From: Escherichia coli
GTDB lineage: Bacteria > Pseudomonadota > Gammaproteobacteria > Enterobacterales > Enterobacteriaceae
Reading direction: 5' to 3' (one strand)
DNA: 64,000 nucleotides
NCBI RefSeq assembly: GCF_044324785.1
Contig: NZ_CP172127.1
Shown here: piece after piece, positions 14,248-23,222 of the stretch
How the letters are laid out: every line of letters starts with the position of its first letter
How positions within the stretch are numbered: position 1 is the first letter of the stretch
Made by a program: the position numbers and the translations under genes
Notes under the pieces: generated by a model
What the model was told of the DNA's origin: nothing
Database searches by the model: none
Seen by the model: the letters and a program-made list of their open reading frames with translations, nothing else

Positions 14248-15384
14248 ATGAGCCACTTAGACAACGGTTTCCGTTCACTGACACTACAACGTTTTCCGGC
14301 GACGGATGACGTTAACCCGCTACAGGCGTGGGAAGCGGCGGATGAATATTTGCTGCAACAGTTGGACGACACAGAAATCCGCGGCCCGGTGTTGATCCTG
14401 AATGATGCCTTTGGCGCGTTAAGTTGTGCGCTGGCGGAACATAAGCCGTACAGCATTGGCGACTCATACATCAGCGAACTGGCGACGCGCGAGAATTTAC
14501 GCCTCAACGGGATTGATGAATCGAGCGTGAAGTTTCTCGACAGCACCGCTGACTACCCGCAACAGCCGGGAGTGGTGCTGATCAAAGTACCGAAAACACT
14601 GGCATTGCTGGAACAGCAACTGCGTGCGCTGCGCAAAGTGGTCACGCCGGATGCACGTATTATTGCCGGTGCCAAAGCCCGTGACATCCACACTTCCACG
14701 CTGGAACTGTTCGAAAAAGTGCTCGGCCCGACCACCACCACACTGGCATGGAAAAAAGCGCGCCTGATTAACTGTACATTCAATGAACCGCCACTGGTCG
14801 ATGCGCCGCAGACCGTTAGCTGGAAGCTGGAAGGTACTGACTGGACTATCCACAACCATGCGAATGTCTTCTCCCGCACCGGGCTGGATATTGGCGCGCG
14901 CTTCTTTATGCAACATCTGCCAGAGAATCTCGAAGGTGAGATTGTCGATCTCGGTTGCGGTAATGGCGTTATTGGCCTGACATTGCTCGATAAAAACCCG
15001 CAGGCGAAAGTGGTGTTTGTCGATGAATCACCGATGGCGGTTGCTTCCAGCCGTTTGAACGTAGAAACCAACATGCCAGAGGCGTTGGATCGCTGCGAGT
15101 TTATGATCAACAACGCGCTCTCCGGCGTGGAGCCTTTCCGTTTTAATGCTGTGCTCTGCAACCCGCCGTTTCATCAGCAACATGCGCTGACCGATAACGT
15201 CGCCTGGGAGATGTTCCACCACGCCCGCCGCTGTCTGAAAATCAACGGCGAGCTGTATATCGTTGCCAACCGTCACCTGGATTACTTCCATAAACTGAAG
15301 AAGATTTTCGGCAACTGCACCACCATCGCCACGAATAATAAATTTGTGGTGCTGAAAGCAGTGAAGCTGGGGCGTCGTCGGTAA
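14248..15384 (+). CDS. rlmG: 23S rRNA (guanine1835-N2)-methyltransferase RlmG
   Basis: 378-aa ORF; SAM-methyltransferase motif [11 protein letters not shown]; recalled RlmG (YgjO). Confidence 0.9.
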
Positions 15385-15399
15385 GATTGGCAGCTACCT

Positions 15400-15487
15400 G
15401 CCAGATAAGGCGTAAACGCCTTATCTGGCCTACGTTCAGCACATTACCCCCAGGTCGGATAAGACGCGGCAAGCCTCGCATCCGGCA
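15400..15487. repeat. BIME: two REP elements between rlmG and fadH
   Basis: gccagataaggcgtaaacgccttatctggcctac and gtcggataagacgcggcaagcctcgcatccggcac match REP consensus types. Confidence 0.65.
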
Positions 15488-15501
15488 CTTCAATGCACAA
15501 T

Positions 15502-17547
<2,046 letters not shown>

Positions 17548-17650
17548 TTATGTGGTCGGATGAGTTCTAATTTAGCCGTCGCCGGAGAAAAGGGAAAAGG
17601 GGAGTGCGGGGTTTGTGATGGGATTCAAAAAGAATACGCCCATTGGAAAT

Positions 17651-17718
<68 letters not shown>

Positions 17719-17719
17719 G

Positions 17720-17756
<37 letters not shown>

Positions 17757-17777
17757 GGGCAGGCTACGGAGATAGTA

Positions 17778-19384
<1,607 letters not shown>

Positions 19385-19419
19385 TCAGGGGGCAGATAGT
19401 GCCGTGTTTGCTCACTGGC

Positions 19420-19594
<175 letters not shown>

Positions 19595-19595
19595 T

Positions 19596-23222
<3,627 letters not shown>

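What the first reader, a model, noticed from the sequence alone, without database searches (positions are those of the whole stretch)
15385..15501. No higBA module between rlmG and fadH; only a BIME
rlmG and fadH are separated by just 117 bp made of two REP elements. From memory, K-12 carries the higB-higA toxin-antitoxin pair in this interval, so the absence marks this as a non-K-12 background and another REP-associated variable junction.
Basis: inference. Interest (0 to 1): 0.3.

Follow-up and report, generated by a model that had tools for sequence, protein, structure and literature searches.

The report
Empty higBA site, one BIME left
In this E. coli strain the small gap between the rlmG and fadH genes holds only a common palindromic repeat pair, whereas K-12 carries the higB-higA toxin-antitoxin genes there; about one complete E. 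coli genome in five has the same empty version, so this is an ordinary, already documented strain difference.

Summary
rlmG (14248-15384, +) and fadH (15502-17520, -) converge on a 117-bp gap made of two inverted REP hairpins, which together form one BIME. No HigB or HigA coding sequence occurs anywhere in the 64-kb window. K-12 MG1655 has fadH-higA-higB-rlmG at this site.

Among 5,426 complete E. coli genomes:
- 2,825 carry full higBA.
- About 1,550 carry a decayed higB plus an intact higA.
- About 1,000 (18-19%) have the empty junction, including UTI89, S88, APEC O1, SMS-3-5 and the type strain ATCC 11775.

All alleles share the BIME after rlmG. The cassette starts directly after ...GCATCCGGCA. 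It ends at a second BIME or a remnant of one, which closes with the same 10 bases. That second BIME is complete in E. whittamii, partial in some E. coli, and a 22-nt stub in K-12.

The empty allele is what deletion between these direct repeats would leave. Deletion is favoured over insertion, but the direction is inferred, not shown.

Across Enterobacteriaceae this gap holds variable REP content and occasional cargo. The polymorphism and the principle are already known, so interest is low.

The parts
14248..15384 (+). rlmG, 23S rRNA m2G1835 methyltransferase; stop codon TAA at 15382-15384
   Evidence: ORF list; NF011577 885 bits over residues 1-378; annotated rlmG in matching genomes
15385..15501 (.). 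117-bp convergent intergenic gap. This is the empty allele of the higBA site and contains one BIME.
   Evidence: The same 117-bp junction occurs in UTI89, S88, APEC O1, ATCC 11775 and SMS-3-5.
15400..15433 (-). REP1. It reads GTAG + palindrome on the minus strand, so it is an iREP with CTAC at 15430-15433 on the plus strand. The 14+14 stem is perfect, with a 2-nt gap between the arms. It starts 15 nt after the rlmG stop codon.
   Evidence: Inverted repeat I2, 100% complementary; pattern search with 0 expected by chance; sub-threshold Rfam naRNA4 match, a REP-derived RNA family by my recollection, 33.5 bits, E 6e-4; folds as a 13-bp hairpin on both strands
15434..15449 (.). Short head-to-head linker between the two REPs (GTTCAGCACATTACCC)
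   Evidence: Sequence. It is the same as the linker of the left BIME in occupied alleles N3, MSB1_4I and SCU-176.
15450..15487 (+). REP2, an imperfect palindrome. The GTAG position reads CCAG (15450-15453), so the tag is degenerate. It ends in GCATCCGGCA (15478-15487), the 10-nt sequence repeated at the far end of the higBA cassette in occupied alleles.
   Evidence: GTAG is intact in the orthologous REP of strain E69 (L011). Junction alignment.
15487..15488 (.). Junction point. In occupied alleles the 614-938 bp higBA cassette lies between these two bases.
   Evidence: Alignment of the window with K-12-like, N3, Nissle and MSB1_4I alleles, and with SCU-176
15488..15501 (.). 14-nt tail CTTCAATGCACAAT between REP2 and the fadH stop codon. 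It is identical to the tail that follows the right-hand BIME in occupied alleles MSB1_4I and SCU-176, and differs from the K-12 tail CTTCAAATAACGAT.
15502..17520 (-). fadH, NADPH-dependent 2,4-dienoyl-CoA reductase; stop codon complement at 15502-15504
   Evidence: ORF list; annotation of matching genomes; 98% identity to K-12 FadH

Best explanation
The 117 bp are a single BIME: two REP hairpins placed head-to-head, sitting in the shared 3' region of the convergent genes rlmG and fadH. This is the empty allele of a multi-allelic site.

In the occupied form, rlmG is followed by the same BIME (call it BIME_L), then the higB-higA operon with its own promoter, then a second BIME in the same orientation (BIME_R) or a remnant of it, then fadH. 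Recombination or replication slippage between the two direct repeats removes the cassette and leaves one BIME. At minimum the repeat is the shared GCATCCGGCA. Where BIME_R survives, it is about 50 nt at roughly 86% identity.

The window carries this deletion product. Its lineage most likely received it, or its nearest relative lost it, within a roughly 5-kb homologous-recombination tract.

The deletion leaves both neighbouring genes with a REP hairpin 14-15 nt beyond their stop codons, as in K-12. The expected effects on mRNA 3'-end protection and translation-coupled regulation are therefore unchanged. The only functional consequence is loss of the HigB mRNA interferase and the HigA repressor.

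What is shown: the anatomy, the allele series, the repeat boundaries and the frequencies. What is inferred: the direction (deletion rather than insertion), the recombination mechanism and the role of the REP hairpins in RNA.
For: 1. The same left BIME follows rlmG in every allele. The cassette starts right after ...GCATCCGGCA and ends at ...GCATCCGGC(A/G), followed by the fadH tail.
2. E. whittamii has full higBA flanked by two complete BIMEs in direct orientation (L010).
3. E. coli MSB1_4I and SCU-176 keep a partial BIME_R, and their tail CTTCAATGCACAAT is identical to the window's.
4. K-12 keeps only a 22-nt stub of BIME_R.
5. higA is present at this site in an E. albertii-like Escherichia (L008, 96% aa identity) and in E. 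whittamii. Diverged higBA (HigB 64-69% identity) lies at the same site and in the same orientation in Pseudocitrobacter, a Citrobacter sp. and strain RIT691. Occupancy therefore predates E. coli.
6. Other alleles show independent decay: a 5' deletion of higB in about 1,550 genomes and a 3' deletion in SCU-176.
7. The closest genome over 24 kb, N3, is occupied. It has 0 differences per kb at 11-13 kb and 20-22 kb but 13-42 per kb across 13-18 kb.
8. Empty alleles have a uniform length of 115-117 bp.
9. Both hairpins fold more stably than shuffled sequence, z = -3.8 and -2.8.
Against: - Most other Enterobacteriaceae genera have rlmG and fadH adjacent without higBA: 64 of 74 species loci have a gap of 150 bp or less. 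At family level the empty state may therefore be ancestral, and higBA may have arrived by insertion at least once.
- BIME_L and BIME_R are too similar, and the diagnostic positions too few, to map a crossover point.
- In K-12-type alleles only 10 nt of repeat remain, so a deletion from that haplotype would be a microhomology event rather than homologous recombination.
- No allele-by-phylogeny reconstruction was possible with these tools.
- The RNA-level roles of the REP hairpins rest on literature recalled from memory and were not tested here.
Confidence: 0.72

Rival explanations
1. The empty BIME-only junction is the ancestral state. higBA, together with a copy of the BIME, was inserted next to the resident BIME in the lineages that now carry it, K-12 included. 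The window simply never had it.
For: - 64 of 74 species-level loci across Enterobacteriaceae have a gap of 150 bp or less and no higBA.
- Cryptic-clade 'E. coli' genomes L009 and L011 are empty with one BIME.
- TA modules are known to move horizontally (established knowledge).
- The junction sequence alone is symmetrical with respect to insertion and deletion.
Against: - higA or higBA lies at exactly this site in E. whittamii and the E. albertii-like L008, and in diverged form in three other genera.
- An insertion would need to duplicate an 85-95-nt BIME, and no known mechanism does that.
- The allele series shows progressive decay: BIME_R goes from complete to partial to a stub, and higB carries 5' or 3' deletions.
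- Occupied alleles carry the window's exact 14-nt tail.
Confidence: 0.2
2. The REP-associated transposase TnpA_REP (RAYT) cut and rejoined the two BIMEs, excising the cassette enzymatically rather than by homology-driven recombination.
For: TnpA_REP cleaves and recombines BIME DNA in vitro, and BIME copy number varies between strains at a given locus (PMC3333891, read). The boundaries lie at REP ends.
Against: - The junction (GGCA|CTTC) is not at the reported cleavage motifs, CC|T in the iREP or GCC|TAC (PMC3333891).
- In the window REP1 is a perfect palindrome and REP2 lacks GTAG. Each of these changes abolished binding or cleavage in that study.
- TnpA_REP has not been shown to delete kilobase-scale cargo.
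Confidence: 0.05
3. The missing higBA is an artefact of assembly, with the two flanking BIMEs collapsed into one, and the real strain carries the cassette.
For: Direct repeats can collapse in short-read assemblies (general knowledge).
Against: - Roughly 1,000 complete (finished) genomes show the same junction with an identical 117-bp length, including reference strains UTI89, S88, APEC O1, IHE3034 and ATCC 11775.
- The repeats are under 100 nt and flank about 900 bp of unique sequence, which ordinary reads resolve.
Confidence: 0.02

Closest known systems
REP / BIME elements of E. coli (Gilson, Bachellier and Hofnung; Ton-Hoang et al. 2012, PMC3333891)
   Same: - Two 30-40-nt palindromes in inverse orientation, separated by a short linker.
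- CTAC/GTAG tag on REP1.
- Extragenic position between convergent genes.
- Dozens of near copies per genome.
- Inter-strain variation at the locus.
   Different: - REP1 is a perfect palindrome here, whereas the K-12 ortholog has the usual stem mismatch.
- The GTAG of REP2 has mutated to CCAG.
- By the in-vitro rules of PMC3333891, this copy is probably no longer a TnpA_REP substrate.
higBA (ygjNM) type II toxin-antitoxin locus of E. coli K-12 (Christensen-Dalsgaard et al. 2010, PMC2814082)
   Same: The chromosomal address, between rlmG and fadH, is the one K-12 uses for higBA.
   Different: The window has no higB, no higA, no higBA promoter or operator, and no remnant of any of them.
The fadH-rlmG polymorphism described for AIEC and UPEC strains (PMC7232551)
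   Same: That paper reports complete HigBA at the fadH-rlmG intergenic region in K-12 and HS, and an orphan higA in CFT073 and NRG857c. This is the same variable site.
   Different: The window shows the third state, fully empty. The passages I read from that paper do not mention it, but it is present in many published reference genomes.

Membership tests
REP element | 30-40-nt palindrome able to form a stem-loop | tested here: met
   REP1 at 15400-15429 has 14+14 nt, 100% complementary. REP2 at about 15452-15487 is an imperfect hairpin. Fold z-scores are -3.8 and -2.8.
REP element | Conserved GTAG tetranucleotide at the foot of the palindrome (CTAC for an iREP), as defined in PMC3333891 | tested here: inconclusive
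   REP1 has CTAC at 15430-15433, so the feature is met there. REP2 has CCAG where the ortholog in L011 has GTAG, so it is degenerate in the window.
REP element | High copy number, dispersed through the genome | tested here: met
There is another REP-like site in the window at 19615-19644.
REP element | Extragenic location | tested here: met
   It lies wholly between the rlmG stop codon (15384) and the fadH stop codon (15502).
BIME | [quoted passage not shown] | tested here: met
   The order is iREP (CTAC), a 16-nt linker, then REP, in head-to-head arrangement.
BIME-2 subtype (y + z2, short linker, tandem copies) | Specific y and z2 consensus sequences plus the S linker | not tested
   The consensus sequences are in a figure that the library does not hold. 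A short linker and y-like REP1 suggest BIME-2 or an atypical BIME, but only one copy is present here.
TnpA_REP (RAYT) substrate | A REP with GTAG and a stem mismatch, both required for binding and cleavage in vitro (PMC3333891) | tested here: not met
   REP1 keeps GTAG but has no stem mismatch. REP2 has a mismatch but no GTAG. Activity itself cannot be tested with these tools.
higBA type II toxin-antitoxin module | A HigB toxin ORF (PF09907) followed by a HigA HTH antitoxin ORF | tested here: not met
   K-12 HigB and HigA match PF09907 and PF01381. tblastn of both against the whole window gives no hit better than E = 1.
Rho-independent terminator | G+C-rich stem followed by a run of T | tested here: not met
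   No terminator-like site was found on either strand in 15200-15700. The hairpins lack a T tract.

The most novel reading that the evidence does not exclude
The rlmG-fadH convergent gap may be a conserved, REP-seeded exchange point across Enterobacteriaceae. The observed contents are higBA, a DUF1266 gene, a DUF3289 + DUF943 pair, and tandem REP arrays of up to 5 units. On this reading, small cargo is gained and lost through the flanking BIME direct repeats. Decay of one flanking BIME, as in K-12, then 'locks in' the toxin-antitoxin cassette by removing the substrate for its deletion.
Probability: 0.3. Interest if true: 0.35.

Novelty: already known. Interest (0 to 1): 0.12.

Why it matters
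It matters little beyond strain typing. The locus is a clean example of how REP/BIME repeats bound a small accessory cassette, and of how a chromosomal toxin-antitoxin module can be lost without harm. This fits the view that such modules are dispensable. For annotation, the 117-bp gap is a genuine allele and not a missed gene. For K-12-based reasoning, HigBA cannot be assumed present in B2/ExPEC-type backgrounds.

Tried and rejected
- **Rfam, region 14900-16000, E-value mode.** Only sub-threshold hits to naRNA4, which I recall as a REP-derived RNA: 33.5 bits against a gathering score of 59.5. There is no distinct RNA gene.
- **Promoter and terminator consensus scan.** Nothing on either strand.
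- **Mechanical ORFs overlapping the gap.** These are 15387..15695 (+), 15242..15493 (-) and 15444..15569 (-). All are antisense overlaps of rlmG or fadH, with no support as genes.
- **REP annotation in NC_000913.3.** The feature table returned only CDS rows, so REP status was tested by copy number instead.
- **Counting empties with a 237-nt junction query.** It also joined the 614-bp-insert allele.
- **Counting empties with a 120-nt junction query.** It also matched occupied alleles that keep BIME_R, such as SCU-176. The empty count is therefore given as a range, 995-1,049, derived.
- **Mapping the crossover point from linker variants.** Too few diagnostic positions. L009's linker resembles BIME_R and the window's resembles BIME_L, which hints at more than one event but does not prove it.
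- **Text support for the rule that a REP within 15 nt of a stop codon lowers expression.** Nothing was found in the library. The point is kept as recalled knowledge only (Liang, Rudd and Deutscher 2015).

Full report
**1. The observation**

The window has a 378-aa ORF at 14248..15384 (+) and a 672-aa ORF at 15502..17520 (-). The first matches the RlmG equivalog NF011577 end to end, at 885 bits against a cutoff of 468. The second is annotated fadH in every matching E. coli genome and is 98% identical to K-12 FadH. The genes converge, and the gap is 15385..15501, 117 bp, exactly as reported.

The gap holds two REPs:
- A perfect 14+14 palindrome, GCCAGATAAGGCGT/ACGCCTTATCTGGC, at 15400-15429, followed by CTAC at 15430-15433.
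- After a 16-nt linker, an imperfect palindrome in the opposite orientation, ending in GCATCCGGCA at 15478-15487.

A REP-type pattern hits REP1 with zero matches expected from shuffles. Rfam gives only sub-threshold hits to naRNA4, which I recall as a REP-derived RNA. By the definition in Ton-Hoang et al. 2012 (PMC3333891), two REPs in inverse orientation with a linker form a BIME.

K-12 HigB and HigA find nothing anywhere in the 64-kb window.

**2. The K-12 comparison**

NC_000913.3 is annotated fadH (b3081), higA (b3082), higB (b3083), rlmG (b3084), consecutively. The K-12 derivative NEB Turbo shows rlmG, 283 bp, higB (315 nt), higA (417 nt), 44 bp, fadH. The locus was named higBA (ygjNM) and shown to encode a RelE-like, translation-dependent mRNA interferase by Christensen-Dalsgaard et al. 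(PMC2814082). The window flanks are 96.2% and 94.5% identical to MG1655, so the background is non-K-12 by sequence too.

**3. Population picture**

I used the K-12 higBA sequence (728 nt) as a query against 5,426 complete E. coli genomes.
- 2,825 genomes (52%) have the full module.
- 4,377 have some part of it, so about 1,552 (29%) carry a decayed form. This is typically a 78-nt 3' remnant of higB plus an intact higA, as in Nissle 1917.
- 1,049 have none.

Nearly all genomes (5,402) have rlmG and fadH within about 1 kb of each other, so the genomes with no higBA are essentially all empty junctions. A second estimate gives at least 995: 2,547 genomes, minus 1,552. The empty allele therefore has a frequency of about 18-19%.

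The empty allele occurs in UTI89, S88, APEC O1, IHE3034, NU14, SMS-3-5 and the type strain ATCC 11775. From my own knowledge these are mostly phylogroup B2 and F. Further E. coli alleles exist:
- MSB1_4I has 5'-deleted higB plus an extra partial BIME after higA.
- SCU-176 has 3'-deleted higB plus a nearly complete second BIME.

**4. Anatomy of the junction**

In every allele the same BIME follows the rlmG stop codon, and the cassette begins immediately after ...CGCATCCGGCA. At the other end the cassette finishes in REP sequence that again ends GCATCCGGC(A/G), followed by a 14-nt tail and the fadH stop codon. The right-hand REP sequence varies:
- Complete BIME in E. whittamii (L010) and in the E. 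albertii-like Escherichia sp. MOD1-EC7003 (L008).
- Partial BIME in MSB1_4I and SCU-176.
- A 22-nt stub, GCCGGATGCGTTGCATCCGGCG, in K-12.

The cassette therefore sits between direct repeats, and the window sequence equals 'left BIME + right tail'. The window's tail, CTTCAATGCACAAT, is identical to the tail after BIME_R in MSB1_4I and SCU-176 and differs from the K-12 tail CTTCAAATAACGAT. Its REP1 variant and linker are those of the left BIME in N3, MSB1_4I and SCU-176. The simplest reading is deletion between BIME_L and BIME_R, with the crossover at or near the terminal GCATCCGGCA, on a haplotype that still had BIME_R.

**5. Direction of the event**

I fetched the rlmG locus from 80 species-level genomes. 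Both genes could be placed in 74 of them.

| Gap between rlmG and fadH | Loci |
|---|---|
| -4 nt (overlapping stops) | 15 |
| 150 bp or less, including the 15 above | 64 |
| 151-500 bp (mainly tandem REP arrays, up to 5 units) | 4 |
| over 500 bp | 6 |

Five of the six largest gaps contain higA or higBA:
- E. whittamii.
- The E. albertii-like L008, with HigA 96% identical but higB replaced by a DUF1266 gene.
- Pseudocitrobacter faecalis, a Citrobacter sp. and strain RIT691, with HigB 64-69% identical, in the same orientation and with a recognisably homologous upstream region.

Within Escherichia, occupancy is therefore old and the E. coli empties are most simply derived. At family level the empty, or even zero-gap, state may be older still. 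I rate deletion at about 0.7 and primary absence at about 0.2.

**6. How the window's strain got its allele**

The best match to the first 24 kb of the window among all complete genomes is only 98.9%, to strain N3, which is occupied. Per-kilobase differences to N3 are 0 at 11-13 kb and 20-22 kb but 13-42 across 13-18 kb, the stretch from ygjP through rlmG to fadH. One of the two lineages therefore replaced about 5 kb by homologous recombination, and the higBA state travelled with that tract. This fits a model in which deletion happened rarely and the allele then spread by recombination.

**7. Function of what remains**

On either strand the RNA folds into two hairpins that are more stable than shuffled controls. 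There is no T-tract terminator and no promoter. REP1 begins 15 nt after the rlmG stop codon, and REP2 ends 14 nt before the fadH stop codon. K-12 keeps a hairpin at the same distances.

From established knowledge, not tested here, REP hairpins protect upstream mRNA from 3' exonucleases. REPs within about 15 nt of a stop codon have also been reported to reduce expression through ribosome stalling (Liang, Rudd and Deutscher 2015, recalled; I could not retrieve the text). On this basis the deletion should not change rlmG or fadH expression. Its consequence is loss of HigB and HigA.

**8. Details of the BIME**

Relative to K-12 (GCCGGATGCGGCG...CGCCTTATCCGGC), the window's REP1 has four substitutions. 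All of them preserve or perfect base pairing, which is the signature of quasi-palindrome correction by template switching (an inference). REP2 has CCAG where strain E69 has GTAG. In vitro, TnpA_REP needs both the GTAG and a stem mismatch (PMC3333891). This BIME is therefore probably inert as a transposase substrate, which argues against the RAYT-excision rival.

**9. Verdict**

The finding is real and correctly interpreted, but ordinary. It is a common allele of a known variable TA site bounded by REP/BIME repeats. The added value here is the allele series, the frequencies, and the flanking direct-BIME architecture that explains the clean 117-bp product. Novelty: already known. Interest: low.

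Noticed in passing
window 17521-19660 (ORF 17825..19366, minus strand): The other side of fadH is also variable. The window has a 513-aa ORF between fadH and ygjK, with no Pfam match and what look by eye like about three internal repeats. K-12 lacks this ORF entirely and has REP copies there instead. A REP-like site sits at 19615-19644. The ORF is annotated 'hypothetical protein' in strain VCSW7 and is frameshifted in N3.
   Followed up: partly
window 15400-15429: REP1 is a perfect 14+14 palindrome, whereas the K-12 ortholog has the usual stem mismatch. The four substitutions all keep or create base pairs, which looks like templated quasi-palindrome correction. By PMC3333891, a perfect stem abolishes TnpA_REP binding.
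   Followed up: partly
window 1-24000: No complete E. coli genome among 5,426 is more than 98.9% identical over these 24 kb. Divergence from the nearest genome (N3) is mosaic: 0 differences per kb at 11-13 kb and 20-22 kb, against 13-42 per kb at 13-18 kb. This indicates a recombination tract centred on rlmG-fadH.
   Followed up: partly
L003 (Nissle 1917) 2197-2687; L089 (SCU-176) 636-1169: About 29% of complete E. coli genomes keep an intact higA next to a decayed higB. The common form has a 324-bp deletion that also removes the higBA promoter and operator region. SCU-176 instead lacks the higB 3' part. These are orphan antitoxins of unknown expression.
   Followed up: partly
L008 5333-6130; L007 1630-2276; L059 5297-6680: The same rlmG-fadH gap carries other cargo in other taxa. 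There is a DUF1266 gene in place of higB, with higA kept, in Escherichia sp. MOD1-EC7003. In E. albertii NBRC 107761 the same ORF is interrupted by sequence that I recognise from memory as an IS10-type end. Enterobacter sp. kpr-6 has an AT-rich DUF3289 + DUF943 gene pair flanked by REPs.
   Followed up: partly
L031 5132-5516; L032 5132-5601; L060 5132-5590: In some Citrobacter and Enterobacter species the gap holds tandem arrays of 4-6 near-identical BIME or REP units (372-457 bp). In 15 species the two stop codons overlap, with no gap at all. REP load at this junction is therefore highly labile.
   Followed up: no
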